64,000 bases of DNA from Giardia intestinalis (Eukaryota), in assembly GCA_000002435.2 (NCBI GenBank), contig CM018792.1; one strand, written 5' to 3'. Position 1 is the stretch's first letter; each line of letters begins with the position of its first letter. A program made the translations under genes and the position numbers. Of the stretch, positions 22,104 through 64,000 are shown piece after piece. Under the pieces are notes generated by a model that saw only the letters and a list, made by a program, of their open reading frames with translations, ran no database searches and had not been told where the DNA came from.

Positions 22104-22808
22104 ATGGCGATACGCGAACTGGAGCTGTTTCTAAATCACTCTTTGACAGACGAGATTCGATCGCAGCTCATAACCAAGGTCACAGAGATGCTCACCATGC
22201 CCGAGCTCGTCCACTTCCGTTGCTCACTACAGTCAGACTATGGTATTGCTGCACCTATAGGTCTCTACGACATTCTTCGGAGGATTCCCCTGTTTGCTGA
22301 CCATGCCTTTATGACCATCGGAGAGGTCTTTAGTGGCCTTTTTGCTGTAGCAGACTCCTTTCATGAGGTCATTACAGAGATTCAACCGTCTCTCGAGCAA
22401 TACGAAGGCCATATTTTGTGGCTCCTAACAGACACTTATAGTAGCCTCATGCACCAATCCCGTAGCTTCAAAGATTTGGGGATTCCCGTGAAGCGGATTA
22501 AGATGATTCTCAAAACAGCTTATAAGTTTACCCCAGCGCTTCCCAAGACCATTCATGACTTGGATGCCGATACAATGTCCCAGGTTCCGTCCCATGATGA
22601 GCTTAACAAACTACGCGAATACGTTGACCAGCTCCCTAACGCACAAGCCCGAGCGTTAGTGTTTGGTAAACTCTTAAGAGAGATAGGGAGGCGCCCCGAG
22701 GAAATAATCCTCAATGGGAACCAATTAAATCTAGAACTCACTGACCTGCCCTCCTTCGCATTCTGGGTCCTACTGGATGCTGCACAAGCGTATGCAACTC
22801 CATCATAG
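22104..22808 (+). CDS. Hypothetical protein, 234 aa (MAIRELELFLNHSL...), with a possible C-terminal NET/ET-like helical domain
   Basis: The track ORF 22092..22808 starts at a TTG. The first ATG is at 22104. This is the longest ORF in the interval and no competing ORF of similar size overlaps it. The C-terminus SHDELNKLREYVDQLPNAQARALVFGKLLREIG...QLNLELTDLP loosely follows the BET extra-terminal pattern (LP...hydrophobic helix...EIEID-like strand). That match is tentative. Confidence 0.6.
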   Translation: MAIRELELFLNHSLTDEIRSQLITKVTEMLTMPELVHFRCSLQSDYGIAAPIGLYDILRRIPLFADHAFMTIGEVFSGLFAVADSFHEVITEIQPSLEQYEGHILWLLTDTYSSLMHQSRSFKDLGIPVKRIKMILKTAYKFTPALPKTIHDLDADTMSQVPSHDELNKLREYVDQLPNAQARALVFGKLLREIGRRPEEIILNGNQLNLELTDLPSFAFWVLLDAAQAYATPS

Positions 22809-22841
22809 CAATCGTGGCCGACCTTGTGTTTGGTGAAGGTA

Positions 22842-23009
22842 TTAGGTGGACTTAAGCTCGCTAGCTAAATGGTCACTGAATTCTCTGAGCAAAAGGGCAC
22901 GAGGTTCTGTAAATGCCGTTTTCTCTAGCTGGCTTTCAAATAAAGTTATCTCATCTATAGCCTCCTGGTGAGAAAGGCTGCGCGGGTCCTCTGAGAAGGT
23001 TATTTCCAT
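22842..23009 (-). CDS. Candidate small ORF, 55 aa (MEITFSEDPRSLSHQEAIDEITLFESQLEKTAFTEPRALLLREFSDHLASELKST)
   Basis: It falls below the 60 aa cutoff of the track. The ATG at 23009..23007 is directly preceded by ctatttttaaa, a Giardia-type AT-rich initiator context. The stop is at 22842..22844. No homology was recognised. Confidence 0.3.
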   Translation of the reverse strand: MEITFSEDPRSLSHQEAIDEITLFESQLEKTAFTEPRALLLREFSDHLASELKST

Positions 23010-23269
23010 TTTAAAAATAGATCTATTCTATCTCCTTACTTATCAATGCGTATTTGCACAGATAAAGTGTACGTATGTACGTGATTAATATCTGAATGTC
23101 CAGAGTAGATAATTACTTAACCTCGAATGTACGTTTTCACCTCATCATGAACGTGGTGCGTGGAAGAACGACACTAATACCCTTCATGACTCAGACTATT
23201 TACTAGAGGGTTCTATGCCGTTTCAGATGAGACAGCATCATTCGCTGAGCCAGGTGCTTGGATCTGTAC

Positions 23270-23484
23270 GTTTACTCTCTCCGTTTCACCGAGGTGGGGT
23301 TGCCATCTGCCACCTGAGCAATCCCCTCCATGCGAGCCACCGCCACTCTGGGTAGGCGGGTCCCTCCCGCCCTTGCACCAGCTGAGATCCAGAGTCCAGA
23401 GTCTAGAAACCAAAATCTGAGAATATGAGCTCAGATGTCAAGCGATTCCGGTGGGAGAAGAAGAAGTTTTCCACTTTCCCTCTC
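23270..23484. repeat. 3'-terminal inverted repeat of the left retroelement copy (inverted, diverged copy of the element 5' end)
   Basis: On the plus strand, 23270-23484 (gtttactctctccgtttcaccgaggtggggttgcc...ccatgcgagccaccgcc...gctgagatccagagtccagag...cagatgtcaagcg...) aligns in the same orientation with 29856-30051 (gtttactttccggttcaccggggtagggttgtc...tcatgcgagccaccgcc...cctgagatccacgtccagag...cagatgtcaacca...). By eye, roughly three quarters of positions match. Confidence 0.7.
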
Positions 23485-24790
23485 GGGAGTCTCTGTCGCT
23501 CTTCGCGGTGCCTTCCGAGGCTCTCCCATCTTCTGGCCTTTCGGGTCAGCTGTCGTCTGATATCTAGTGAGCACCCGTTGTCTCGGGCTTTTCCGTCAGC
23601 CACAGCAGTCTGGCCTCAGAAGCAGCTGACCCTGGCCATGTACTCCAGAGTCGCCTTGGTGCTGGTACTCTATCACGAAGATCGCATACGCCACGAACCT
23701 CAGGTGTCGATCCCTAGGTCCCTGAGGTGCTCCCTCGTCTTCTCGTGGAGGGTGCCGTCAGTCCCGAGTATGATCGGGAGGGTGCTCCCCGTATGCCTCT
23801 ATCTTAGAGTGGTAGTACGAGCTCATGGACGCCGGCTGGACCACTCCTATGTCGACGGCCTGGCTGGTGTCTGGAAAGAAGAGGTCCGGCTCTGGTTCTC
23901 CTTGTCATGGTCAACCCATACCTTCTGCTCGTGGATCACAGTGCACCTCTTCTTCGACATTATGTGATCAGTCATCCAACACGAGATCATGTCGACGCTC
24001 ACCCTATGCAGTGCGTCTGGCTCAGTGACGATGTGGTCTGCATCTCCTTGCATCGCACAGCACACTTGGAGGTGATGCTTTGGTCTGCCGAGACAGTCGG
24101 TCCAAGCCCGCATCTTTTCGAGAGGCGGCGGAAGGCGTCGTCCGGAAGCATCAGGAACGATCCGAAGACATGATTGATGTACGAGCCTGTGCTCACCGTT
24201 AGGTCGTCTCGCTCAGCAACCGGTTCGCGATGCTCCGTCGTCACGTCGAAGGTGTTAAATGCATCGCGCAGTTGCTTGTGATAGACGCCCGGCAGGTGGA
24301 CTCCCAGGCCGCCACTCTTCTTCGGTGCCGCCAGGAACGATCCACCTCTTCGGGTCAGAGCCGAGTATCCCTCCAAGGGCCTCTCCGACCTGCCTGTCGA
24401 AGGATTCATATTGTTCAACTGGTGAGTCCATCTCGACGAGCGGTGCGTAGCCGGCCATCGGAATGGCGTTGATCCTGGCCAGCGTCAGCTTGGCGTGGTG
24501 GGTGATCGGCGCGTCCATCACCAGCTTCAAGCTCTCTGCTGCCTTCTCTATCGCCCTGGGGGCTATGGACTGCTTCTCCTTCGAGACCGGGGCCCCCGGG
24601 AAGGAGACCTCCTGTCCTCTTTGGGTGCTCTTGCACTTGTCAATGTTGACTGTCAAACCATATCGTTTCGCCAGGGCTGTCGCCTCTGTGATTATCCCCG
24701 TCGCGTCGCTGTCGTTGGCATGGAAGCTGAGTGCGTCGTCAGTGTAGGCAATGAGTAGGGTATCTCTCCTTCGGCTCCTGGTGAGCAGGT

Positions 24791-25279
24791 TCTGTCCCCC
24801 GCAGCACAGAAGCATGCTCAGGGCCCTGAGGGACCGAGTCCAGGGGTGCAGCGTGGCGCAATTAGAGGAAGGCCTCGATGTAGTTCTCAGGATGAAGGGT
24901 ACACTCGCCTGGCCGAGGCCGTCTGCTGTTGGGGCTCTCGTTATGTCGAGCGAGGCCGCTGTGTTCCGTCAATCTGCATCTCCATGTATGCCATGCGGAC
25001 ACCACCCATGTGCGTTCAGGTGGAGTGCATCTGCTCGGTCTCTAGAAAGGCCAGTGTCTGGGTCTCCAGGGGGCTCAGCAGTATCTGTGAAACACAGCCA
25101 TGATCGTCCACTGATTGTGCTTGTCCTGTCTCATCATTGGGAAGAGGGTAGAACAAGAGTTCTTCCGCTCTCCAGACCTGGTTGACATCTGATCTTCGGG
25201 CTCTGGACGTGGATCTCAGGCGATGTATGGACAGGAGGTACCCGCTTGCCTAAGGCGGTGGCTCGCATGAGGGGATCAT
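24791..25279. repeat. Left arm of an apparently perfect 489 bp inverted repeat (partner 29912..30400)
   Basis: Position p on the left pairs with 55191-p on the right. Blocks 24841-24900, 25081-25160 and 25161-25279 were checked base by base against the reverse complement of the right arm and are identical. The track ORFs 24846..25103(+) and 30088..30345(-) have identical 85 aa translations. ORFs 24751..25185(+) and 30006..30434(-) are identical apart from their first residues. Confidence 0.9.
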
Positions 25280-25465
25280 TCCAGGAAGATGGAACCGTTA
25301 CATTATATCTACTGCTGTTCAGCTGTGATATTACATTAGAACTTGATTCTATTAATTTCGATAAAGTAACATTAGACACCGAGAAGGAAGCAATGTACAC
25401 AAAAACTGACACACATCCACAAACAGCACGAAAGCGTAGTGAAATGGTCGCTATTCACTCTAGGA

Positions 25466-26497
25466 TCATTTCGAGAGGATATCTACTATCTCTTTGTGAC
25501 CCTTCTTCTTAGCGATGTCAAGGGCAGTAGTACGGGGCGGGTAACCACAGTAGTCATAGACTGTCATCAGCTGCCTCTCCCCTAAGAGTAACTCAACACA
25601 CTCTATGTGGTCACCCCACACCGCATTCATAAGAGCTGTCCATCCTTTATCATTCTTCATGCCACTTTCTCTTCCTAACAGAAGCCTGACACACTCTGGA
25701 TGGCCATTACGTGCTGCCCACATGAGAGCAGTTTGACCGGTATTATTCTCCATGCCACTCTCTTTTTTGAGCAGCTCTACAACCCCTCTGTGCCCTTGCG
25801 CTGCCGCATACATAAGCGCTGTCCATCCACCAGCATCCTGGCCCCTCCTCATGTGAAGGTTGTTTCTGACTGCACCGATATCACCACGGTAAGCGGCGTA
25901 TATGAGTCCTGTCCACCCTGAGACACTGCTCTCATACCCCACCAGAAGCTCAACGCACCTAGGATAGTCTACCAGGGGGTCATTGGAACGGCCACTCCGT
26001 GCCGCGAATACGAGAGCGGTCCAACCGCCTACTTTCGCACCTCCTTCGTAACCCGCTAGCAGTTCTACTATTTCTGCGTATCCATGTGCCGCAGCCATCA
26101 TCAGCGCGGTTCCCCCCTTGTACATGGTCATCTCATCTATCTTGAAGCCTCCGGACGCCTTCTGTCCTTCCTGAAGGGGAGCAAGCGCCTTCACAGTACC
26201 TACATCATTTCTGTCAACAGCTCTCATGAGGGCAGTAAATCCGTTTTTGTCGGTGGGGTCGAGGAGCTCAACGATGTTCTTGTGTCCTGCCCTCGCAGCT
26301 ATGATCAGCGCTGTATCCCCCTCGCTGTTCTTCTTGTCTTTGTCTGAGAGATGCTTCTCGGCTGCCTCGAAGTCTCCGTCCGCAGCAGCGTGCATGAGAG
26401 GCGTCCAGGACAAATCCCTTGTGAACTGAGGTCCTGCATCGACATCCCCTTGACCAGAACTGCCTACTCGCGACCCTCCGCGTTCGTTGCGTGCCAT
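25466..26497 (-). CDS. Ankyrin-repeat protein (Giardia Protein 21.1 type), 343 aa
   Basis: It contains a run of ankyrin repeats with the Giardia-typical G(W/F/D)TALMxAAxxGHxxxVxLL pattern (TALIIAARAGHKNIVELL, FTALMRAV, TALMMAAAHGYAEIVELL, WTALVFAARSG, WTALMYAAAQGHRGVVELL, QTALMWAARNGHPECVRLL, WTALMNAV). The ATG is at 26497. Confidence 0.9.
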   Translation of the reverse strand: MARNERGGSRVGSSGQGDVDAGPQFTRDLSWTPLMHAAADGDFEAAEKHLSDKDKKNSEGDTALIIAARAGHKNIVELLDPTDKNGFTALMRAVDRNDVGTVKALAPLQEGQKASGGFKIDEMTMYKGGTALMMAAAHGYAEIVELLAGYEGGAKVGGWTALVFAARSGRSNDPLVDYPRCVELLVGYESSVSGWTGLIYAAYRGDIGAVRNNLHMRRGQDAGGWTALMYAAAQGHRGVVELLKKESGMENNTGQTALMWAARNGHPECVRLLLGRESGMKNDKGWTALMNAVWGDHIECVELLLGERQLMTVYDYCGYPPRTTALDIAKKKGHKEIVDILSK

Positions 26498-27469
26498 TCC
26501 TTATTTTTCTTGCCGAAGAAAGGGGCTAAAACACCTGTAATTCACACTGTAATCTACAGCTCAGTCAAATGATGTCCATACATGTATTCCTATATAACTT
26601 TGGCCCTTGCTGATTCTTTCTGTTGCATATAACTGTATGTAGTGTTATGCGTCCATGCCCGGCCTCTGCTCCTTCGTGCTGCGGCTAGCTGGGATCTTGT
26701 GAAGTACTAGGCTAGAGCCATTAACAGCGTGGAACACTGGTGGGCTTTCATCTCACCCGCAAAGTGCAGTGCGCTATGCTCTGTCTGTGAGCACTCATGC
26801 TTGACTACCCGAATGGGCTGCGTGATGTAGACTACTCTGAGACTGTAACCAAGGATTCGTGCTCAGTGCTAATTCATCTGCCGCTGTCGTTGGACCTCGT
26901 GGCAGCCATGATCTCAGATGCCTTGTGCTTACATCTGTAAGTCTTCTATGGTTGAAGAAAGTGTCTGTACGAACAGCGGGGGGCTCTCCCATGGGTTGCA
27001 GCTATGCCCATTGCAGGACCTTCAGGTCTCCTTGGACGTAGCCTGCCCAAGCTCAGTGGACTGCTGTGCAGAGAGTGTAGTCGCTCTTCGCCTGTTACGC
27101 TTTCTCCTGAAGAAGGCACGTTGCGGGAGCACTTCAAGCCCTACACTAGTGGAAAGCGCCATCGGCAGAACGCAGTCCACTGAATTCTCACGAAAGAAGC
27201 CGCTTCCACAGGATGCCCGTGGAGAGCGGCGCAGACGGCCCCCGCTCTATCTACACATGCAAGCTGGCCCCTTCGGCACACACGTTCTGCACCTTGTACG
27301 AGGCAGAGGGGTCCTGATGGGATAAAGTACCGACGCGTGTTACGGTGTGAGTGGGACGAATGACGAAGAACCAAAAAACGGTCTTACACATGCTAACAGC
27401 GTTGAACAGTGTACACTGTGGTCTCTATAGACCCACAAAGCCATCACAAAAAACGAGGAAACGACCCTG

Positions 27470-27904
27470 ATGAGCCAGGACGAGGGCAAAGCGGCAGAAG
27501 AATCCTTTGGCCGCTGGTTTTCTGCTGCACAGCGCGGAGATTGCGCCTATCTAAAACAGCATATAGCGACCATGCGGCGAGCCGTGGACTCCCGAGGAAT
27601 GACTGCGCTGATGCATGCAGCGGATGCAGGTCACGCATCGTATGTCCAAGCACTGGTTAGTGAAGCGTGCGAAATCAGCTCTGAGGGGTTCAAGGCTCTT
27701 AGGTACGCAATCCGCGCGTCCTCGATTGATGCTGCAGGAGTCTTGCTTCCGTATGAGGGCTCTGTTGAGACCTCTTCCGGTCTTTCTCCACTCCTTATGT
27801 TATTGAAGCGCAAGCAGGACACCATTGCACATATGTGCTTTGAGCATATGGATTCGTCTAAAGATCTGGCTCAAGGGAAGGATGGGGAGTTAGAAAGATA
27901 TTAA
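27470..27904 (+). CDS. Short ankyrin-repeat ORF, 144 aa; possibly the 5' part of the next ORF
   Basis: The ATG is at 27470. Ankyrin motifs are present (GMTALMHAADAGHASYVQALV). The stop TAA at 27902..27904 overlaps the ATG of the following ankyrin ORF (TAATG). Confidence 0.6.
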   Translation: MSQDEGKAAEESFGRWFSAAQRGDCAYLKQHIATMRRAVDSRGMTALMHAADAGHASYVQALVSEACEISSEGFKALRYAIRASSIDAAGVLLPYEGSVETSSGLSPLLMLLKRKQDTIAHMCFEHMDSSKDLAQGKDGELERY

Positions 27905-29148
27905 TGTTTGCTACTGAGCTGAACGACTACGGGCTCCTGCAGGATGCCATCCGTCGCTGTCATAAGCTGCCTGCGGGCGATATAGCTGAAGTACTTTCTC
28001 TCGAAACAGCTACCGGCCCAACCTTTTGCATAACGTACCTCATGGGTGTGCTTGACGGATTCGCACACCGGGATGACTCAAGGCGCCAACACGCTTCTCC
28101 CACACTGATCACAACGACTCCAGATGTTGTAAAGGGTGGCCCCAAAGTAGATGAGAACGGCAACACTCTCTTGATGAGGGCAGTCATGACCTTCAACTAT
28201 AAGAAGATGCCCGACTATTCTTCTATCCTGTGCAGAAGCGTGAACAGGGAGGGGAAGACTGCGCTCATGATCGCGGCAGAAATAGGCAATGAGTCCGCTG
28301 CGGCAATACTCAGGAAATACGAGGCGAAGATCCAAGATCCTGCTGGAATGACGGCCCTGATGTTCGCCGTGAACAAGGGAAATTTAAAGCTCGTCCAGAC
28401 GCTGTTAAAGTATGAGGTTGGTCTGAAGGACGTTGCAGGCCGGACGGCGCTGATGCATGCAGTACTATCAAACAAGCAGCCTATTATTCAGGAACTTATC
28501 AAGTGTGAGACTAGCAACCAAGACTTTCAGGGCAAAACAGCCCTTATCTATGCCGTAGAGCAGAACCTTTATCAAGCCTGCAAGGCGCCCATTCCTTATG
28601 AAGCGGGCTTGGTGGACCATAGGGGTCTGCGTGCAATAGATTATGCCAAGCTCTTCGACAATATGGAGCTGATAGATCTTTTAGAGGACTCAGAAGGAAT
28701 TTCACGAAACTCTCTTCAGCAGATCCTGCTTCGTCACGGGTGGCTAGCGCCACGCATATCCAGGCCCAGCCCCAGTCGTAGTAGCCCTAAGCCGGCTCTC
28801 TCTGGTTCCACTGTGAGCAAGCCCACTACTTCAACACAAGATAAGCAGCACACTACTGTAGATGTGAATAAAGAAGGCTCACTGCCTGAAGACGCGAAGG
28901 TATTTTCCACCGATCTTATCTCTGCTGTCCACGCCAGTAGGTACTATGACATCGGTGTTCTAGCCCCACATCTTGCCAACATGAGAGATCACCACAACCT
29001 CACGGCACTCCACTACGCTATCTACCAGAATAAACGAGTGGCAGTACGCATCTTGCTTCCTCACGAATACGAATCCCTTAATGGGTTTACTATTCCACCA
29101 GAGACGCGACCAGAGATAGTTGAGATGATAAACCTCTATAGGAAGTGA
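27904..29148 (+). CDS. Ankyrin-repeat protein (Protein 21.1 type), 414 aa
   Basis: Repeats are present (NTLLMRAV, KTALMIAAEIGNESAAAIL, MTALMFAVNKGNLKLVQTLL, RTALMHAVLSNKQPIIQELI, KTALIYAVEQN, LTALHYAIYQNKRVAVRILL). A Ser/Pro-rich linker (RPSPSRSSPKPALSGSTVSKPTTST) separates the repeat blocks. Confidence 0.85.
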   Translation: MFATELNDYGLLQDAIRRCHKLPAGDIAEVLSLETATGPTFCITYLMGVLDGFAHRDDSRRQHASPTLITTTPDVVKGGPKVDENGNTLLMRAVMTFNYKKMPDYSSILCRSVNREGKTALMIAAEIGNESAAAILRKYEAKIQDPAGMTALMFAVNKGNLKLVQTLLKYEVGLKDVAGRTALMHAVLSNKQPIIQELIKCETSNQDFQGKTALIYAVEQNLYQACKAPIPYEAGLVDHRGLRAIDYAKLFDNMELIDLLEDSEGISRNSLQQILLRHGWLAPRISRPSPSRSSPKPALSGSTVSKPTTSTQDKQHTTVDVNKEGSLPEDAKVFSTDLISAVHASRYYDIGVLAPHLANMRDHHNLTALHYAIYQNKRVAVRILLPHEYESLNGFTIPPETRPEIVEMINLYRK

Positions 29149-29208
29149 AGCTCTCATATAAGTACCCATTCAATCTGTATAGGCAGGCCTGTGAGGTATC
29201 TATGGAAC

Positions 29209-29855
29209 TCATTTCTTTTTACCGCCACGTGAGTTGTTCTTGAAGAAGATTATGTCCCCATCTTCAACAACGTAGTTCTTCCCTTCGGTGCGGACCTTCC
29301 CGGCTGCCTTGGCCTCTGCTTCGGACCCTAACCTCTTGAGATCCTTATAAGTGTAAACCTCTGCACATATAAAATAGTCGCGGAAGTCGCTGTGGATAAC
29401 CGCGCCTGCGTCCGGTGCCTTGGTGTATTTTCTGACCGTCCAGCATCTAACTTCGTCTGCACCACATGTGAAGAAATGACAGAGGTTCAATGCCTTATAT
29501 CCCGTCTTGATGATCTTATCGAGAGCCAACTCCACAACGGAACCGTCAGGGAGCTTGTATTTTGAGGGGAGCTCTCTGAGGTAAGCATTTCTAGCCTCTG
29601 CAGAGCCTAGCTCCAAAAGTGTCGCCTCTAGCTTGGCGCTGTACGGCACTATATGCGCAGTCTCGTTTTTGGCCGTTATCCGTTCCTGTATCTTAGTAAG
29701 GAACTTATTCTTCTTCTTACTATAATCTGCCTCACTCATGTTCAAAAGGTAGACCACAGGCTTGCAACTAAGCAACTGCAGCTCGTTGAGAATCTCCACC
29801 TCACGGGACGACCAGCCCTGGGCAAAGAGGTCCTTCTTTTCCTTGAGTAGTCCCT
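29209..29855 (-). pseudogene. 5'-truncated OLA1/YchF (Obg-like ATPase) fragment: C-terminal ~215 codons only, no G domain
   Basis: The translation ...SCKPVVYLLNMSEADYSKKKNKFLTKIQE...LNLCHFFTCGADEVRCWTVRKYTKAPDAGAVIHSDFRDYFICAEVYTYKDL...[32 protein letters not shown] follows human OLA1 as I remember it (...[29 protein letters not shown]...[41 protein letters not shown]...[25 protein letters not shown]...KKK). The N-terminal P-loop G domain (about 170 aa) is absent. Homology stops at the retroelement terminus at 29856. The first in-frame ATG is only at 29739. Confidence 0.75.
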
Positions 29856-30051
29856 CTATTTTTAGGTTTACTTTCCGGTTCACCGGGGTAGGGTTGTCAC
29901 CTGCTGCTTGGATGATCCCCTCATGCGAGCCACCGCCTTAGGCAAGCGGGTACCTCCTGTCCATACATCGCCTGAGATCCACGTCCAGAGCCCGAAGATC
30001 AGATGTCAACCAGGTCTGGAGAGCGGAAGAACTCTTGTTCTACCCTCTTCC
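29856..30051. repeat. 5'-terminal repeat of the right retroelement copy (inverted relative to the element 3' end)
   Basis: See 23270..23484. The outermost 7 nt, GTTTACT, are the exact reverse complement of the AGTAAAC at the 3' terminus of the left copy. Confidence 0.7.
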
Positions 30052-30400
30052 CAATGATGAGACAGGACAAGCACAATCAGTGGACGATCATGGCTGTGTT
30101 TCACAGATACTGCTGAGCCCCCTGGAGACCCAGACACTGGCCTTTCTAGAGACCGAGCAGATGCACTCCACCTGAACGCACATGGGTGGTGTCCGCATGG
30201 CATACATGGAGATGCAGATTGACGGAACACAGCGGCCTCGCTCGACATAACGAGAGCCCCAACAGCAGACGGCCTCGGCCAGGCGAGTGTACCCTTCATC
30301 CTGAGAACTACATCGAGGCCTTCCTCTAATTGCGCCACGCTGCACCCCTGGACTCGGTCCCTCAGGGCCCTGAGCATGCTTCTGTGCTGCGGGGGACAGA
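29912..30400. repeat. Right arm of the 489 bp inverted repeat (partner 24791..25279)
   Basis: See the left arm. There are mismatches immediately outside both ends: 24790 T against the complement of 30401 (C), and 25280 T against the complement of 29911 (C). Confidence 0.9.
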
Positions 30401-31127
30401 GCCTGCTCACCAGGAACTGAAGGAGATACTCCACTCAGTGTCTATATTGACGACAGTGACGCGATGGGGACAGTCACAGAGGCGACAGGCCTGGCGAAGC
30501 AACATGGCTTGACGGTCAGCACTGGGTGTAGGAGCACTGAGGGGCAGGAGGCCTCCTTCCTGGCCGGTCTCAAGGATCCCCCAAGACAACCGAAGGCCGA
30601 AGCCAGTGATGGCACCAATCACTCGCCAAGCTGGCCGGGATGGACCCACACGTGACCCATGTGAATCCCTCGACAGGCAAGTCGGGATCCTTGGGGTGCT
30701 TGGCTGGCAGAGGCGGACTGATCCTGCCTGCACCGAAGAGTGGTGGCGGCTCGCATGAGAAATCACTCAGATAACAGATGAGAGTAAATCAGGGGACTTT
30801 GTTGAAAAAGAAACGGCGACTCGAACTTCACCCACCACGAAGGAAGACCAAGGATAGGCGCCACCGGTAGACCAGAGAGTCTACAAGAAGGCCTGAATTC
30901 AAGGTAGATCGATGTGTACACCCAGACAGAGCATATCCTCATGGAGCAGCCGAGGAGCGCCCAGATTCTGAATGTGTCACTAAAGAGGACTCTCTCGTCA
31001 TGTTATTCGCAACCAACCCTCATCTTTGGATGACCAGGACTTAAATGAAAGCTTACCCGTGAGATCCTTGAATGCACTTGCGGGCAGGCCCCAGCAACAC
31101 ATCTACATGAGCTACATACGGTGACGC

Positions 31128-31142
31128 GTTTACTACCTAAGT
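31128..31142 (-). promoter_or_regulatory. VSP-type extended polyadenylation signal ACTTAGGTAGTAAAC
   Basis: On the minus strand, 4 nt after the TAG stop, the sequence reads ACTTAGGTAGTAAAC. This matches the conserved VSP 3' motif ACTYAGRTAGTRAAY, which contains the Giardia AGTPuAAPy signal. Confidence 0.8.
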
Positions 31143-31146
31143 ACAT

Positions 31147-33000
31147 CTACGCCTTGCCCCTGCAGATGAACCACCAGCAGAGGAATCCGACGAGGCCTCC
31201 TACAACAACAATCACAGCGACGGAGATCCCCGCGATGGCCCCCGTGGAAAGGCCACTCCTGTTGGTGCTGTCTCCTCCAGTATCTCCGCCGGTGCCATCG
31301 TCAGCCTTTTGTTGCGTTACGTAACAGGTGACAGGGCCATTGCCACCAGCTGGCGGGGCACAGCTTATGCAGTTTTCTACACCAGTTATTGCATTAGAGC
31401 TAGCCTTATCACTATCCGTGCATTTGAAGCATTTATCACCGGCACCTTTGTAATACCCTGCTAAGCAATCTGTGCAGGTTTCCTTACTACCCGCACACTT
31501 CACACATCCTTCAGTACACGCCGGACATTTTCCTCCAGCTGGGCTTTGTCCATTGGCACACGTTTGGCATTGTCCCTTATTCTGTGCAGCCGTACACACA
31601 GAGCTACCAGGAAGCTTCTGTGTGTTGTAGCATCCGCCCGATAACAGAGCGTAGTTTGCCCCACACTCAGTGCATTTCCCGCCACTTGCCTTACATCCGG
31701 AGGCATCTCTCGCTGTTGCAGGTATGGATGTGCAGACGCCGTCGACTGGGGCGTACCCCTCCTCGCACTGATCGCAGTACTTCGAGCCTCCGACGTTCAG
31801 TGAGCAGCCGTCGGCCTTGCAGTGGGCCATAAAGTCTCCCGTGCACTCCTTTATACAGGTACCCTTAGCATTCGTCTCATCACGCTTCAACACGTATCCC
31901 GGATAGCAGGCCGTGCACGACGTTTCTGCGTTAGTACTACAGCTTGCGCACGATTCGTGGCACAGATTACAAACGTTAGCGTCAGTGCGAGTTCCCGCGG
32001 GACAGGCATCTAAGCACGCGTCTCCCAAGGGGCTCAGCTTCTTTTCTGATCCGCAAGCTTCGCAGACGTTGTCCTTACTGCACTTTTCGCAATGCTCCAT
32101 GGGACACACAAAGCAGCCTGTTCCGGCTTCATTGGGTTTTTTAGTACCCTCGCAGGTAAGACACTTAACGGAATCTCCAGTCTTTGAGCACGTCTTGCAG
32201 TCGGCCACACCGCCCTCACTGACACTACCGCAGAGATGGCACTTTTTGTCCTCTGCTATTGGGAAGTGTGTGTTACCACATCCGTTTTCGTCAACACACG
32301 TGCCTGTCCCGTCGCTATTGGCCCCTTCTTTGAAGTATTGCTTACCAGTATCCTTGCAGGAGGTGCATTTATCCTCACCGTTGCCGGTGCACGTTCTACA
32401 ATCTGCATGGCACTGCTGACAGCTTGTAGTGCCATAGTATCCGTCCACACAGCTTTTACATGTGGCCGTCTGTTCTGCACTGCTTTGTCCGGGAGTTTTC
32501 GGGGCGTCGCACGTCGCACAGTTCTGAACCCCCTTATTATGATCCACACCGGCCGTGTTGTTGCATGCAATACAGGACTCCTTCGTTTTATCAGCGTCAG
32601 ATGCAGGATTCTTGAAGTACCCGTCGTGGCAAGCTATGCATATTCCATCCTTATCAGCCGTGGCAGTTCTATCGTTGCACACAAGGAGCCCGATATCGCT
32701 TCCCATCTCGTAGCACCCTCCCCTGTGCAGGAAGAAGCCGGCTTTACAAGATGTACATGTGCCATCATTCTTTGTTGTACATGCTCCTTCAGCATCCTCG
32801 CCTGTAGTTATGCACTTTCCATTGACAAGATGCTCTGCTGCTGTCGAGCACTGGGAGCAGAAGTTTGAGCCCCCAATCCAGACGTCGCACTTTCCTGTTG
32901 CGCACTGTCCTGTTTGCGGGTCACTGCTAGCCTCTGTGCATGTCGTTGCTGCCCATACCACTTGCAGGATGGCGATTCCGAAGATGATTTTCTCGAACAT
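31147..33000 (-). CDS. Variant-specific surface protein (VSP), 617 aa, complete
   Basis: The C-terminus is ...[33 protein letters not shown], the invariant VSP TM domain plus CRGKA tail. The ectodomain is Cys-rich with many CXXC motifs and GGCY motifs (HRGGCYEMG, LLSGGCYNTQ). The signal peptide is MFEKIIFGIAILQVVWA. The track start at 33021 is a GTG. The first ATG is at 33000. Confidence 0.95.
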   Translation of the reverse strand: MFEKIIFGIAILQVVWAATTCTEASSDPQTGQCATGKCDVWIGGSNFCSQCSTAAEHLVNGKCITTGEDAEGACTTKNDGTCTSCKAGFFLHRGGCYEMGSDIGLLVCNDRTATADKDGICIACHDGYFKNPASDADKTKESCIACNNTAGVDHNKGVQNCATCDAPKTPGQSSAEQTATCKSCVDGYYGTTSCQQCHADCRTCTGNGEDKCTSCKDTGKQYFKEGANSDGTGTCVDENGCGNTHFPIAEDKKCHLCGSVSEGGVADCKTCSKTGDSVKCLTCEGTKKPNEAGTGCFVCPMEHCEKCSKDNVCEACGSEKKLSPLGDACLDACPAGTRTDANVCNLCHESCASCSTNAETSCTACYPGYVLKRDETNAKGTCIKECTGDFMAHCKADGCSLNVGGSKYCDQCEEGYAPVDGVCTSIPATARDASGCKASGGKCTECGANYALLSGGCYNTQKLPGSSVCTAAQNKGQCQTCANGQSPAGGKCPACTEGCVKCAGSKETCTDCLAGYYKGAGDKCFKCTDSDKASSNAITGVENCISCAPPAGGNGPVTCYVTQQKADDGTGGDTGGDSTNRSGLSTGAIAGISVAVIVVVGGLVGFLCWWFICRGKA

Positions 33001-33943
33001 TGCCGGCAGCCCATAGAGCACGCAACACCAGGCGACGCTGCCACGTGGTAAGTGAGGATAATGTGCACCCTACGAGGATGCCCCGGTGTAGCGGATCTCT
33101 GGTGTCCTAGTGGCTTCTCCTATGTGTGGCGTCTCTAGGGACCAAGGAGAGAATGTGCATTATGGCATCTCAAGAGCGGCCCCTCGCACATCACCGGTAC
33201 CTATGACAGTAATCATCACTACGTGGATAGGTCCACTCAAGTAATGAATGCACCCACTGCTATGAAACTGGACCGATGCTCCTCACAAGAGCTGCCTGGA
33301 TAAAGGAGAGAGCCACCGACAAGCCTCAGCTGTGCTCTGTCCAGGACCACCACACAGGGGCGAGAAGTCGGCTGGCCGTCACTTTTTAGCAATGACACCA
33401 ACCACTGCCTCTGCTTGGTCCTCCTGGGATGCCTAGAGCGCTCACACATGGATTCTTGTGTGTCCTCCACGGCTATCTGGGCATAGTCGCCACGGTCTCT
33501 CGTAGTTCTGTTCCCTACTGTTACAGGCCACATGCTAGCCGCCTACACAGTACTAGAGCAGCTGTAGACAAGACCGAGGCGGATCGATGAACCAGTGTGT
33601 CTGGCTTCCCCTCTGGCTGTATCTTCTATTCAGTTCAACACTCTCAGATAGCATCCTTTACATAACAGATTTTGTTAAGTACATGGATCCATTCTTAACC
33701 TTCCACTGTTACTACGGACGACCGAGCTGTTTGGCTGGCGTATGCCTCTGTAGACGGTGTTATTCTAAACTATACAATTTACAGGGGTAGGCAGAGAGTA
33801 TGAGGACTGAAGAGAAGGGAACTCAGATAGAGTCCTAGCTCAGCGGGATAGTGTCATCGTGGTCACGTTATCAATGAGTGGCAGGCTTGCACATATAGAA
33901 ACCCTTTGGTACATATTGTGCTACGCTTTATGAAAAACGCTAA

Positions 33944-36322
33944 ATGCTCGGCCTTTTACCACTGGCTCTCCTTGCTTCTATTTGCAAAAGTTCAAGAGAT
34001 GCGTATTACAACAAGTTCGGCGTGGGATGTGAGGGCAAGCAGGAGAATTGCGCCCAGGATAGGTGCTTTTCCATAGGGTCATGGACGTCATGCACCCAAT
34101 GTATCCCTGGGTATGTTCCAATAGATGGAAAATGCCAGAATTACTCCGGAGCTAGCTCCCCTCCATGTACTCCAGATGATCCCAACTCACCGACTCGCTG
34201 CATCAGATGCACATCAACAGAAAATGTCTTTCTCTTTTATGGCAGCTGCTATACAATTACAACAGCACAGAACAGAAATCTGGGCAATTTCTTGTGCTCT
34301 GAAGCATCGAATGGTGTGTGCACTAAATGCTTTGAAAGTAAGCTTGAAAGATATGTCTTTACCAATCCAGACACAAGTGCAGCTGAGAAGTGCATCCTGT
34401 GCTCCGATACGGTCGGGTTCAATGGGTACAAAGGCGCCTCTGGGTGCCTAGACTGCCTTCCTCCCATCACTGATAAAATAGGCATCGCTCTGTGTGTTAA
34501 GTGTCACTATACTACCGAGGATAGACATTTTTATCCGATTGACTATCAATGCCAAGCCAAAGGGCCTCACAATTGCGTCAATGGTTACTGCACGTCATGC
34601 TACAAGACACATTTGTTCTATGAGTATGGATGTTATAGTCGGCACAGTTCGACTGGATTTGCCATATGCGCGGGGGCGAATCAGTACGAGCTAGATAATG
34701 TTACTATCTGCAAAGAGTGCGCAAATGCATCATACGCACCCAGGAACGGAGCATGCATTCTTATCAAGGAAAATCCATCTATTGAAGAGATCGCTTTTAA
34801 GTGCACAAAGGATCCAACTAAAGGACTATGCACGGCCTGCTCTAGCTCCGCGCCATCTTTCCTCTTCTACGGCGGCTGCTATGACGAGGACGCCCGTATT
34901 AGCTCAAAACTCTGTTCAAGAATTGGATCAAATGCCTGTGAACAATGGAATAGTGCTTTCAAATGGATCTTCTCTAAGAATGGCGATAACAATAAAAATG
35001 GATATCTGTGTGGCGATATTGCAAACGGTGGCATCTCTGGCTGTGCTACGTGTAACTATGCCAGCGGTGCTGTCACTTGCACGCGGTGCTCGGCAGGGTG
35101 CCTAGGAGTGGACGGGAAGTCCTGCAGTGAAGGCTGCAGCGGAGACACTCGGGGAGTGTGCACGAAGGTAACAGAGGGGAGCGAGTCAACTGAAGTGTCG
35201 TGTCGATGCGTCTGCAGGCCGACGTTCTACAACAGCTCCGGAACGTGTACACCATGTACGGACTCGTGCGCTGTCTGCAAGGATGGCACACTAACCGGCT
35301 GTCAGCAGTGCAGCCCCGGCAAGATCCTGAGCTTCTCGATCGTCTCTAGCGAGAGTGCAGACTGTGTCGATCAGTGTTCTGTTGGTAGTGAGTGTGCAGA
35401 GTGCGGCATCACCATCGACGGCAGCAGGTACTGCACGCGCTGCAAGGACGCAAGCACGTATCCGTTCAATGGCGTGTGTATTCCAAACACACAAAGAGAC
35501 GCGTACTGTACCAGCACGGCAAATGGTGCTTGCACTGCCTGCTCAGAAGCGGCCTTCCTGATGAACGGGGGCTGCTACACAACGGAGCACTATCCAGGAA
35601 GCACTATCTGTGATAAGCAGTCAAACGGAAAGTGTGAGAAGACCAAGGAGGGGTACGGGATATCGGCCGATGGAAAGCTGCTGGAGTGCGATCCGACATG
35701 TCTGGCGTGCACTGCCCCTGGCCCCGGCCGCTGCACCAGGTGCCCCTTTGGAAAGCTCCTGAAGAAGGTCTCGGGTGCCGCCACCGGGAGCTGCGTCGGC
35801 CTTAATGCCTGTGTAGACGGGTACTATGCAGACGGAGACGCGTGCCTGCCCTGCGCCACTCCGGGGTGCAAGACCTGCGGACATGCCTCTTTCTGCACAG
35901 AGTGCGCGGGGGAGCTCTTCGTGAGCCTGGACGGGCGGTCGTGCCTGGAGGAGTGCACCGGGGACAAGGTGGTGGGAGAGGTGTCCAGCGGCGTGCAGAG
36001 GTGCTGGTGTGAGCGGGGCTTCCTACCGGCACTGGACAGATCCGGGTGTGTGCTCCCAACCGAGTGTCCCCCTGACATGTCGTGGTGTGCTGCCTGCGAT
36101 ACGTCGGGTAAGTGTCTCTCGTGTGCCGCCTCGAATCATAACATCCAGACAGATCAGCGGACGTGTGCAGAGGGGTGCGGCGCCAGGGCCTCATCGAACC
36201 AGGGGCTGTGCATGTGCGAGCTTGACGCGGTCCTCAGAAGGGCATCTGTGTTTCGACCAAGGAGCTGGCCAAGAAGAGAACGGCGGCGATCGCAGGAGGG
36301 ACGGTGGCCGGGGTCATTGTGA
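33944..36322 (+). CDS. High-cysteine membrane protein (HCMP, VSP-like ectodomain), 792 aa as read; the reading frame breaks before the TM anchor
   Basis: A signal peptide [14 protein letters not shown] is present. CXXC/CXC-rich repeats with GGCY/GSCY motifs run throughout ([31 protein letters not shown]). The last ~30 residues ([28 protein letters not shown]) look like out-of-frame read-through. Confidence 0.85.
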
Positions 36323-36426
36323 TTGGGAGCCTGGTTGGCTTCCTTTGCTGGTGGTTTCTCTACCGGGGCAAGCGAATTGGTGCCTCTTTGAGTACTGTGG
36401 GACTCGTTCAATCCAAGTCTATGTAA
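36226..36426 (+). other. Out-of-frame (-1) TM anchor and cytoplasmic tail belonging to the HCMP locus
   Basis: The frame starting at 36241 reads [61 protein letters not shown], with its stop at 36424..36426. [11 protein letters not shown] closely mirrors the TM segment [11 protein letters not shown] of the neighbouring VSP. This frame has a TGA at 36223..36225, so the break lies between about 36,226 and 36,244. Confidence 0.75.
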
Positions 36427-63927: not shown

Positions 63928-64000
63928 AGAGGCGAGTGCTTGACGTAACTAAAGCTTGACTATGAAAGGTACAAAAATGAAAATCAATATGCAGGTCACA

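What the first reader, a model, noticed from the sequence alone, without database searches (positions are those of the whole stretch)
23270..25281. RT-encoding retroelement relic bounded by ~200 bp inverted terminal repeats whose tips are the poly(A) signal and its complement
The left copy encodes RT (YTDD at 24735..24746) and an endonuclease-like tail on the minus strand, like a non-LTR element. However, its 3' ~215 bp (23270-23484) are an inverted, diverged copy of the element 5' region (25140-25281, equivalent to 29856-30051 in the right copy). The outermost bases are GTTTACT at the 5' tip (seen intact at 29856) and AGTAAAC at the 3' tip. The element therefore ends in the Giardia AGTPuAAPy signal and begins with its reverse complement. 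Non-LTR retrotransposons are not expected to carry terminal inverted repeats. Possible explanations are a twin-priming or template-switch product that was later copied at the DNA level, or a structural feature of this family.
Basis: seen in the sequence. Interest (0 to 1): 0.6.

Follow-up and report, generated by a model that had tools for sequence, protein, structure and literature searches.

The report
Dead Giardia retrotransposon with inverted ends
This is a decayed copy of a Giardia non-LTR retrotransposon (most likely the 'dead' GilD / Genie 2 family); its roughly 190-215 bp inverted end repeats are real and occur in every related copy I could examine, a trait that, as far as I recall, was already published in 2002, so the finding is correct but not new.

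Summary
Window 23270-23484 is a significant inverted copy (about 75% identity, BLAST E 2.5e-16) of the element's 5' end (25141-25284, and 29866-30050 in the second copy). The outer tips are GTTTACT and AGTAAAC. One correction: the intact 5' tip is at 29866, not 29856.

The element is a frameshifted, stop-riddled non-LTR retrotransposon. It has RT from domain 2 onward, a CCHC remnant and a restriction-like endonuclease remnant, in a Giardia VSP/ankyrin region.

Three full-length copies of about 4.35 kb carry the same inverted 5' arm, 93-96% identical to their own 3' arm where both are present. So the terminal inverted repeat belongs to the family, not to this locus.

The window copies belong to a deletion-derivative subfamily seen at five or more loci in two genomes. 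In it, the inverted arm is fused by a 4-nt microhomology to RT domain 2.

The family is probably GilD/Genie 2. Its inverted repeats were, to my memory, reported by Burke et al. 2002; the paper could not be opened.

The origin of the repeat is inferred, not shown. I favour a twin-priming-like inverted copy of the 3' end that primes second-strand synthesis. Interest is low to moderate.

The parts
23270..23484 (-). 3' terminal arm of the left copy. It is the outer part of the 3' UTR. The tip AGTAAAC (Giardia AGTRAAY motif) is at 23270-23276, read on the minus strand.
   Evidence: blastn to the 5' arm of the right copy, E 2.5e-16. Alignments A1, A3 and A4. The same end ...GGTGAAACGGAGAGTAAAC is followed by unrelated flanks in L002, L007 and L008 (L001: a diverged ...AGAGTAAC).
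23485..25140 (-). Degenerate body of the left copy. RT from domain 2 (IPKDETG at ~25144) through YTDD (24735-24746) and the thumb (PKKSGGLG ~24330). CCHC remnant ~24000-24070. Restriction-like endonuclease remnant (PD..D) ~23840-23895. ORF end ~23586, then the inner 3' UTR.
   Evidence: Three-frame translation. tblastn of P0001, P0009 and P0010 shows homology split over three frames with in-frame stops, starting at P0010 residue 537. Pfam RVT_1. 82-85% nt identity to P15 copies.
25141..25284 (-). 5' inverted arm of the left copy. The outer ~41 nt of the tip are missing or replaced by 81 bp of AT-rich sequence.
   Evidence: Inverted match to 23321-23401. 99% identical to 29907-30050 of the right copy. 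Flank comparison with L007 (A4).
24765..25284 (.). Left half of a 520-nt tract that is 99% identical (inverted) to 29907-30426. The rest of the two copies is only ~80% alike. Probably recent gene conversion between the two inverted paralogs. The tract spans the arm/RT junction.
   Evidence: the repeat finder I1 against I2, I4 and I5. blastn. The same pattern is seen in the syntenic P15 locus, where L007d and L007f are 98.4% alike in RT but 74% in the arms.
29866..30050 (+). 5' inverted arm of the right copy, with the intact tip GTTTACT (29866-29872).
   Evidence: blastn to the 3' arms of the left copy, L002 and L007. Alignments A2 and A4.
30047..30757 (+). Degenerate RT body of the right copy (domain 2 to the thumb). 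It is joined to the arm at a CCTC microhomology (~30045-30051). It ends in a ~1.5 kb internal deletion at the short homology AGAGTGGYGGYGGC.
   Evidence: tblastn. Junction alignment. A7.
30737..30815 (+). Remnant of the right copy's 3' arm (core ...AGAGTGGTGGCGGCTCGCATGAGAAATCACTCAGATAACAGATG...). The tip is degenerate and its end is uncertain.
   Evidence: the repeat finder I8. Alignment A7 with the 3' arms of the left copy, L007 and L002.

Best explanation
The feature is a dead copy of a Giardia non-LTR retrotransposon family whose members carry a terminal inverted repeat as a regular part of their structure.

Structure of the family (shown). A full-length element is about 4.35 kb. It consists of:
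- a ~190-nt 5' arm that is the reverse complement of the last ~190 nt of the 3' UTR;
- about 40 nt of unique leader;
- one ORF with N-terminal C2H2 zinc fingers, RT, a CCHC motif and a restriction-like endonuclease;
- a ~300-nt 3' UTR ending exactly at ...GGAGAGTAAAC, with no poly(A) tail.

The window copies (shown). Both belong to an old deletion-derivative subfamily. In it, an inverted copy of the 3'-terminal ~190-215 nt is fused through a 4-nt microhomology (CCTC) directly to RT domain 2 (IPKDETG). The first ~536 codons are missing. The copies have since decayed: frameshifts, stops, a further microhomology deletion in the right copy, and a 520-nt gene-conversion tract between the two copies.

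Family name (inferred). By elimination and context this is GilD (Arkhipova & Morrison 2001), also called Genie 2 (Burke et al. 2002).

Mechanism (inferred, not shown). I think the inverted arm is made by a twin-priming-like step during target-primed reverse transcription. The second (top-strand) nick also primes on the 3' end of the element RNA and makes a short antisense cDNA. That cDNA anneals to the 3' end of the long first-strand cDNA, either through the arm already present in the RNA or through microhomology. It then primes second-strand synthesis.

This would explain three things:
- the outer tip of the 5' arm is always the exact complement of the 3' tip;
- arm length and inner junction differ between lineages (192 nt in full-length copies; ~190-215 nt plus a truncated body in the derivative; at least 487 nt in L008);
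- the two arms of the recently active lineage are nearly identical.
For: - The ITR is real and significant.
- It is an RT-bearing relic. Pfam RVT_1 matches. A profile of the family hits L1 ORF2p and R2 RTs in the PDB. RT homology lies in three frames with stops.
- Giardia context: a VSP ending in CRGKA and ankyrin ORFs. The relatives with a source name (7 of the 14 protein hits) are all Giardia proteins; the other hits come from unnamed metagenome/Logan assemblies.
- Full-length P15 copies carry the arms. L007: 6193-6384 against 10335-10527, 93%. L009: 5' arm 4793-5008 with an intact GTTTACTCTCCG tip. L131: 7221-7377 against 11372-11556, 96% over the shared core.
- The derivative junction is identical in both window copies, L001, L007:1-687 and L009:4370-4785, each with different flanks.
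- The derivative arm follows 3'-UTR sequence for ~20 nt beyond the canonical arm boundary. It then meets RT at CCTC.
- L008 has another head-to-head inverted join.
- The 5' and 3' arms of full-length copies show only one fixed side-specific difference in ~155 nt. The derivative 5' arm is 23-28% (37% for the basal L009d) from every full-length arm and from the derivative 3' arms.
- GilD is described as dead, next to VSP genes and broken by microhomology-mediated deletions (PMC2861651). This matches the context and the two deletions seen here.
- If both arms are transcribed together they can form a panhandle of ~185 bp.
Against: - I could not open either primary paper. I also had no GilD or Genie 2 consensus sequence. 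The family name, and the statement that the inverted repeats are already published, rest on elimination and on my memory of the Burke et al. 2002 abstract ('all copies contain inverted repeats up to 172 bp').
- The mechanism is inferred from end structures only. No target-site duplications could be scored, because several tips are eroded.
- Derivative copies cluster by side: their 5' arms group together at 79-86% but are only ~72% like their own 3' arm. So they spread without arm homogenisation. This argues against obligatory regeneration of the whole arm at each cycle.
- The ~20-nt extension of the derivative arm is also explained by an ancestor with a longer ITR that suffered an ordinary microhomology deletion.
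- The near-identity of the full-length arms rests on three copies from one genome. Gene conversion could produce it.
Confidence: 0.85

Rival explanations
1. The inverted 5' segment is a one-off accident (twin priming or template switch) in the ancestor of this lineage only. It was then spread by DNA-level duplication, and the family as such has no terminal inverted repeat.
For: All truncated copies share one junction, which fits a single founder event. Their 5' arms cluster with each other rather than with their own 3' arms. The two window copies exchange sequence by gene conversion.
Against: Three full-length copies with a different inner boundary (GAAGAAG|CCCAGACG) also carry the inverted arm. 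The truncated copies have unrelated flanks right up to their tips, so they are not segmental duplicates.
Confidence: 0.06
2. The inverted repeat is a passive structural relic. An ancient inverted duplication of the 3' UTR became the 5' UTR and is inherited through a full-length transcript. It is kept similar by intra-element gene conversion or by selection for an RNA panhandle. The window's subfamily arose by an ordinary microhomology-mediated internal deletion. No special priming role is involved.
For: GilD is reported to be prone to microhomology-mediated deletions. One such deletion is seen in the right copy. Derivative copies kept side-specific arms while dispersing with precise ends, as expected if the whole arm is in the RNA. 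A predicted 185-bp panhandle could be under selection. Gene conversion is evidently active between copies.
Against: This needs an ancestor with an arm at least ~20 nt longer than the present one. Only one fixed 5'/3' difference in ~155 nt of the active lineage is very tight for selection alone. L008 shows a further inverted head-to-head join of a different length.
Confidence: 0.4
3. The structure is two independent insertions that happen to lie head to head: a ~200-bp severely 5'-truncated copy next to a 2-kb 5'-truncated copy.
For: 5' truncation is common in non-LTR elements. Nested or adjacent copies exist in these loci, for example L009 4370-4785 next to 4793 onward.
Against: The same abutting arrangement, with no spacer and the same junction, occurs at five or more loci. 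Full-length copies have the arm at a fixed position 40 nt upstream of the ORF.
Confidence: 0.02
4. It is not a non-LTR element at all. It is a TIR-bearing DNA transposon, or a DIRS-like or Penelope-like retroelement, classes in which inverted terminal repeats are expected.
For: It has terminal inverted repeats of ~190 bp with defined tips.
Against: No transposase, tyrosine recombinase or GIY-YIG domain was found in the ORF. Pfam finds only C2H2 fingers and RVT_1. The RT profile hits L1 ORF2p and R2 best. The C-terminal tail aligns, weakly, on the R2 CCHC/RHD/KPD..D motifs. No terminal target-site duplications were seen.
Confidence: 0.02

Closest known systems
GilD (Arkhipova & Morrison 2001, PNAS 98:14497), also called Genie 2 (Burke, Malik, Rich & Eickbush 2002, Mol Biol Evol 19:619), the 'dead' non-LTR family of Giardia lamblia
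   Same: Giardia host. No intact ORF in this genome. Dispersed rather than telomeric or tandem. Lies next to VSP genes and is broken by microhomology-mediated deletions (PMC2861651). Single ORF with RT plus a C-terminal CCHC and restriction-like endonuclease. From my memory of the Burke et al. abstract, all Genie 2 copies carry inverted repeats of up to 172 bp.
   Different: Nothing demonstrably different. I could not align to the published consensus. The arms measured here are somewhat longer (185-215 nt) than the remembered '172 bp'. The P15 genome holds longer (4.35 kb), much less decayed copies, which postdate the 2001-2002 descriptions.
Twin priming 5' inversions of human LINE-1 (Ostertag & Kazazian 2001)
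   Same: The 5' segment is inverted relative to the 3' segment. The two are joined at microhomology and made in one integration event using both nicked target strands as primers.
   Different: In L1 the inverted piece comes from an internal region adjacent to the direct piece, so there is no duplication and no terminal inverted repeat. Here the inverted piece is always the 3' terminus itself, so the 3' end is present twice, and the arrangement is heritable in full-length copies.
R2 and other restriction-like-endonuclease non-LTR elements
   Same: N-terminal zinc fingers, central RT, C-terminal CCHC plus PD-(D/E)XK-type nuclease. A defined 3' end with no poly(A) tail in the genomic copies examined.
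   Different: R2 is site-specific in rDNA and has no terminal inverted repeat. Its 5' and 3' RNA ends are bound as different structures.
DIRS elements and Penelope-like elements (retroelements with inverted terminal repeats or inverted pseudo-LTRs)
   Same: RT-encoding elements bounded by inverted repeats.
   Different: These use a tyrosine recombinase (DIRS) or a GIY-YIG nuclease (PLE). Neither was detected here, and the RT is of the non-LTR type.
LTR-retrotransposon terminal repeat regeneration by strand transfer
   Same: If the novel reading is right, terminal repeats would be identical at insertion because one end is templated from the other through a short shared region.
   Different: The repeats here are inverted, not direct. 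There is no tRNA primer or integrase, and the similarity is conceptual only.

Membership tests
Non-LTR retrotransposon with restriction-like endonuclease (R2/Genie-type) | Reverse transcriptase of the non-LTR type | tested here: met
   Pfam RVT_1 in the stitched window translation (below cut-off, 23.7 bits) and above cut-off in relatives P0001 and P0010. The family profile hits L1 ORF2p (E 1.5e-7) and R2 (E 2e-5) RTs. YTDD is at 24735-24746.
Non-LTR retrotransposon with restriction-like endonuclease (R2/Genie-type) | C-terminal CCHC motif followed by a PD-(D/E)XK restriction-like endonuclease | tested here: inconclusive
   The intact relative P0001 has CVLCGAKMDTNHIVNC ... RHD ... KPDIFLPD ... 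VDIGVV. phmmer aligns this to R2Bm 8gh6 residues 938-1032 on exactly those motifs, but with E 0.56. The AlphaFold model was too poor to use (pLDDT 39). The window copy keeps only degenerate remnants.
Non-LTR retrotransposon with restriction-like endonuclease (R2/Genie-type) | N-terminal zinc-finger DNA-binding region | tested here: met
   Met for full-length P15 relatives: zf-C2H2 hits in P0010, and three CxxC...HxxxH motifs in L002. This region is absent from the window copies, whose homology starts at residue 537.
Non-LTR retrotransposon with restriction-like endonuclease (R2/Genie-type) | No long terminal direct repeats; defined 3' end | tested here: met
   No direct terminal repeats. Five copies have a defined 3' end followed by unrelated flanks and no A-tail: four end at ...GAGAGTAAAC and L001 at a diverged ...AGAGTAAC.
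GilD / Genie 2 of Giardia | Sequence identity to the published consensus | not testable with these tools
The public collections offered do not include named Giardia repeats.
GilD / Genie 2 of Giardia | Dead: no copy with an intact ORF in the host genome | tested here: met
   Both window copies have multiple frameshifts and stops and large deletions. This could be tested only for this window, not genome-wide. No ORF of the family from a non-P15 assemblage-A genome appeared in the protein searches.
GilD / Genie 2 of Giardia | Dispersed next to VSP genes, not in telomeric head-to-tail arrays; microhomology-mediated deletions | tested here: met
   VSP ORF 31147-33021 lies ~330 nt beyond the right copy's degenerate 3'-arm remnant (~30815). 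VSP genes also neighbour L001 and L131. No tandem arrangement is present. Deletions occur at CCTC and at AGAGTGGYGG. The description of GilD comes from PMC2861651.
GilD / Genie 2 of Giardia | [quoted passage not shown] 2002) | tested here: met
   Arms are present in every copy whose ends were on the contig: both window copies, L001, L007 (two copies), L009 (two copies), L131, and partly L008. The literature statement itself is from memory.
TIR DNA transposon | Transposase gene and target-site duplications flanking the TIRs | tested here: not met
   Only zinc fingers and RT were found in the ORF. The flanks of the five 3' ends and four 5' ends show no duplication.
DIRS-like / Penelope-like retroelements | Tyrosine recombinase (DIRS) or GIY-YIG endonuclease (PLE) | tested here: not met
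   No such Pfam domain in P0001 or P0010, which together cover most of the ORF.

The most novel reading that the evidence does not exclude
The inverted arm is not a fossil. It is the working solution of this family to second-strand priming. The top-strand nick primes a short antisense cDNA on the RNA's 3' end. This cDNA anneals to the 3' end of the first-strand cDNA through a short shared region. The L008 junction hints that the transcript may start ~44 nt from the inner edge of the arm. The annealed cDNA then primes the second strand, so the outer 5' arm is re-made from the 3' arm at each retrotransposition. That would be an LTR-like strand-transfer logic in a non-LTR element. It would account for the near-identity of the two arms in the recently active P15 lineage and for the variable inner junctions (192 nt, ~190-215 nt, at least 487 nt).
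Probability: 0.2. Interest if true: 0.65.

Novelty: already known. Interest (0 to 1): 0.3.

Why it matters
For annotation, this is an ordinary result: two decayed copies of a known dead Giardia retrotransposon in a VSP/ankyrin region.

The family does have one odd trait, a terminal inverted repeat in a non-LTR element, which remains mechanistically unexplained. How second-strand synthesis is primed during target-primed reverse transcription is still an open question.

The P15 genome holds young, nearly intact full-length copies whose two arms are 93-96% identical. An element that may use an inverted copy of its own 3' end for second-strand priming would therefore be a tractable natural test case. 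The comparison made here sharpens that question but does not answer it. It contributes the family-wide presence of the arm, three different inner junctions, and concerted arms in the active lineage.

Tried and rejected
- Primary papers. Arkhipova & Morrison 2001 (PMC64710), Burke et al. 2002 (PMID 11961096 and its DOI) and Ullu 2005 (PMC1151983) are not held. Six full-text searches found no accessible statement about Genie 2 / GilD inverted repeats. Only PMC2861651 gave a useful description of GilD.
- Metagenome scan. The 16-mer arm core CATGCGAGCYACCGCC returned 120 or more single chance hits, none related to the element. The pattern was too short for that collection, so the scan was wasted.
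- Metagenome and Logan contigs L003-L006 and the assemblage-B contig L010 contain internal parts of related elements, but none reaches an element end. They say nothing about the arms.
- AlphaFold model of P0001 from an 11-sequence alignment: pLDDT 39, unusable, so no fold search was run.
- Rfam: no family matches in 22500-31500.
- Exact-sequence look-up of the neighbouring ankyrin ORF, to name the source isolate: not on record.
- Test for a mosaic 5' arm in L001 (outer part like its own 3' arm, inner part like other 5' arms). The signal was weak (Mann-Whitney p 0.03 to 0.0003, depending on the comparator). Most 'own-arm' sites are shared with other derivative arms, so I read it as founder-state retention and not as per-copy regeneration.
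- Orthology of L001 and L002 with the window copies: rejected, because the flanks do not match. L007 is syntenic on the ankyrin-gene side only.
- Target-site duplications: none could be scored, because the tips are eroded in L007 (5'), L131 (both ends) and the window's left copy (5').
Full report
**1. What is in the window**

The region lies in Giardia-type DNA.
- ORF 31147-33021 (-) is a cysteine-rich VSP ending in ...CRGKA.
- ORFs 25466-26497 (-) and 27904-29148 (+) are ankyrin-repeat proteins.
- Every homologue of the element's RT that carries a source name is a Giardia protein.

Two copies of one retroelement lie in opposite orientation.
- The left copy is 23270-25284, coding strand minus.
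- The right copy is 29866 to about 30815, coding strand plus.
- No further copy or fragment occurs elsewhere in the 64 kb.

**2.

Window 23270-23484 is an inverted copy of the element's 5' end.
- The repeat finder reports the core arms 23340-23391/25210-25261 and 23324-23344/25254-25274.
- blastn gives 23267-23401 against 29863-29990 at 74.8% over 135 nt, E 2.5e-16. It gives 23321-23401 against 25201-25276 (inverted) at E 8e-10.
- Alignments A1 and A3 show the match running from the tip inward. It is interrupted only by a GAATCTGA-type microsatellite that differs in length between arms.

The tips are as described.
- The left copy ends ...GGTGAAACGGAGAGAGTAAAC at 23270.
- The right copy starts GTTTACTTTCCGGTTCACC at 29866.
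- The left copy's own 5' arm is 25141-25284 and has lost the outer ~41 nt. In their place are 81 bp of AT-rich sequence.
- AGTAAAC fits the Giardia AGTRAAY polyadenylation motif. That consensus is from my own knowledge.

**3. It is a dead, 5'-deleted non-LTR element**

- The minus strand of the left copy encodes RT from domain 2 (IPKDETG, at about 25144), then YTDD (24735-24746) and the thumb (PKKSGGLG).
- This is followed by a degenerate CCHC region (about 24000-24070) and a degenerate ...PDLFFPD...VDIGVV region (about 23840-23895).
- The reading frame shifts among all three frames and contains several stops.
- Homology to the longest relative, P0010, begins only at residue 537. The zinc-finger N-terminus and RT domains 0-1 are absent.
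- Pfam finds RVT_1. A profile of the family hits L1 ORF2p and R2 RTs in the PDB.
- The C-terminal tail of an intact relative aligns to the R2Bm CCHC/RHD/KPD..D nuclease region, but not significantly (E 0.56). A structure prediction was too poor to help.
- The right copy is not simply truncated. Its RT thumb runs, through the short homology AGAGTGGYGGYGGC, straight into the core of a 3' arm at 30737-30757. This is a deletion of about 1.5 kb. A degenerate 3'-arm remnant follows to about 30815.

**4.

Two protein searches and the contig look-ups retrieved related loci from Giardia isolate P15 (assemblage E) and some metagenomes.

Three P15 loci hold full-length copies of about 4.35 kb.
- L007 6195-10543: the 5' arm (6193-6384) and the 3' arm (10335-10527) are 93% identical.
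- L009 from 4793: the 5' arm has an intact GTTTACTCTCCGTTTCACC tip.
- L131 7221-11556: the two arms are 96% identical over the shared core.
- In these copies the arm is the 5' UTR. It ends at ...GGGAGAAGAAG, and the ORF's first ATG follows about 40 nt later.

Five copies have a defined 3' end followed by unrelated flanks and no A-tail: four end at ...GAGAGTAAAC, and L001 at a diverged ...AGAGTAAC.

The terminal inverted repeat is therefore a property of the family. It is not an accident of this locus.

**5. The window copies belong to a deletion-derivative subfamily**

The arm is fused to RT at the same point in all of the following copies, and each has different flanking DNA:
- both window copies;
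- L001 (5215-7333);
- L007:1-687 (minus strand);
- L009:4370-4785.

Details of the fusion:
- It corresponds to L002 position ~1440-1458, at the IPKDETG codons.
- The derivative's arm does not stop at the canonical boundary. For about 20 more nucleotides it follows the reverse complement of the 3' UTR (AACTCTTGTTCTACCCTC against AAATTTTCATTCTACCTCC), not the 5' leader (CCCAGACGAGG).
- It then meets RT at a shared CCTC.

Two origins fit. The derivative's arm may have been made afresh from the 3' end and joined to a truncated cDNA by microhomology. Alternatively, it may descend from an ancestor with a longer repeat that suffered a microhomology deletion. I cannot separate these.

L008 shows a third head-to-head arrangement. 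The reverse complement of L002 positions 2500-2986 abuts the inner ~44 nt of a 5' arm followed by a complete body.

**6. How the arms evolve**

- Among full-length copies, 5' and 3' arms are intermixed at 85-96% identity. There is only one fixed side-specific difference in ~155 nt.
- The derivative 5' arms form their own group (79-86% to each other; L009d is basal at 63-69%). They are 23-28% (37% for the basal L009d) from every full-length arm and from the derivative 3' arms, including their own.
- The derivative exists in both the window's genome and P15, so the repeat is old.
- The arms of the lineage that stayed active must therefore have been kept alike, or been re-made. The arms of dead copies drifted apart.
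- The derivative copies spread without arm homogenisation. This argues against obligatory full regeneration at every cycle.
- A test for a mosaic arm in L001 gave only a weak signal, which I attribute to retained founder states.

**7. Local history**

- A 520-nt tract (24765-25284 / 29907-30426) is 99% identical between the two inverted window copies. The rest is about 80% alike. This looks like recent gene conversion. Because the tract spans the arm/RT junction, one copy may have acquired its junction from the other.
- The ankyrin gene next to the left copy is syntenic with L007 4938-6194 (86.5% identity). In L007 a full-length copy follows at the corresponding place. An inverted derivative copy lies on the other side.
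- In P15 as well, the two copies are 98.4% alike in RT but only 74% in the arms.
- The 3' flanks are not shared, so orthology is only partial.

**8. Mechanism (inference)**

All joins have one form: an inverted segment followed by a body that starts at a variable 5' position.
- Where the outer end can be read, the inverted segment begins at the exact 3' tip. In L008 that end lies off the contig.
- The inverted segment has variable inner length: 192 nt, ~190-215 nt, or at least 487 nt.

This is the signature of a twin-priming-like event in which the second target nick primes on the RNA's 3' end rather than internally. The short antisense cDNA then anneals to the end of the first cDNA and primes the second strand.

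If the RNA already carries the arm, annealing is extensive. The predicted panhandle is 185 bp with a free-energy gain of -258 kcal/mol. The structure would then perpetuate itself.

The main rival is passive inheritance of an ancient inverted UTR, kept uniform by gene conversion or by selection for the panhandle, plus ordinary microhomology deletions. I give that about 0.4. Nothing here shows RNA ends, priming or activity.

**9. Comparison with what is known**

Giardia is reported to have three non-LTR families. GilM and GilT are telomeric and tandem. GilD is dead, sits beside VSP genes and is broken by microhomology-mediated deletions (PMC2861651; PMC7000408; PMC5537684).

Context, decay and the two microhomology deletions fit GilD, also called Genie 2. 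From memory, the abstract of Burke et al. 2002 states that all Genie 2 copies contain inverted repeats of up to 172 bp. I could not open that paper or Arkhipova & Morrison 2001 and had no consensus to align. The name and the prior-publication claim are therefore well-founded inferences, not tests.

It is not a DNA transposon, DIRS or Penelope-like element. No transposase, recombinase or GIY-YIG domain was found, and the RT is of the non-LTR type.

**10. Verdict**

- Novelty: already known.
- What this second look adds: family-wide presence of the arm including 4.35-kb P15 copies, the derivative subfamily and its junction, the concerted arms of the active lineage, and the conversion tract.
- Interest is about 0.3. 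The unexcluded novel reading (inverted arm as second-strand primer, re-made at each cycle) has a probability of about 0.2.

Noticed in passing
window 29209-29883 (-): This ORF is only the C-terminal half of a YchF/OLA1-type GTPase (Pfam YchF-GTPase_C). tblastn with E. coli YchF matches residues 178-362 only. Homology stops ~37 nt from the 5' tip of the right retroelement copy, and the N-terminal G domain is nowhere in the 64 kb. It is probably a gene fragment cut by the insertion or by a rearrangement.
   Followed up: partly
window 24765-25284 and 29907-30426: A 520-nt tract is 99% identical between the two inverted copies, which lie 4.6 kb apart and are otherwise ~80% alike. This is probably recent gene conversion. 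The syntenic P15 locus (L007) shows the same behaviour: 98.4% in RT against 74% in the arms.
   Followed up: partly
window 30690-30760: The right copy has a ~1.5 kb internal deletion where the RT thumb sequence GCACCGAAGAGTGGTGGCGGC merges into the 3'-arm core AGAGTGGCGGTGGCTCGCATG. A 10-13 nt short homology lies at the breakpoint.
   Followed up: yes
window 25285-25365: 81 bp of AT-rich sequence sit between the truncated 5' arm of the left copy and the point (25366) where homology to the P15 ankyrin-gene flank ends. P15 has the element's arm directly at that point. The origin of the 81 bp is unexplained.
   Followed up: partly
arms of all copies, e.g. window 23400-23430; L002 3180-3230; L009 4960-4990: A GAATCTGA / AAATCTGA microsatellite inside the arms varies in repeat number between copies and between the two arms of one copy. 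Most derivative 5' arms have lost it.
   Followed up: no
L007, L009, L131, L008 (Giardia P15 contigs): P15 carries many copies of this family with long ORF fragments (up to 775 aa annotated; at least 13 annotated proteins on distinct contigs) that are 90-98% alike. In assemblage E the 'dead' family looks much younger than in the window's genome.
   Followed up: partly
L007 1940-4685 and L005/L006/L010: More divergent relatives of the same RT exist (about 65-70% nt identity): one in P15, one in an assemblage-B contig and some in human-gut metagenome contigs. Their ends were not on the contigs.
   Followed up: no
window 31153-31196 and 36329-36372: A short 82% match between two places, probably the conserved 3' ends of two VSP genes. 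The GC-rich blocks at 35000-36000 and 58000-64000 were not examined.
   Followed up: no
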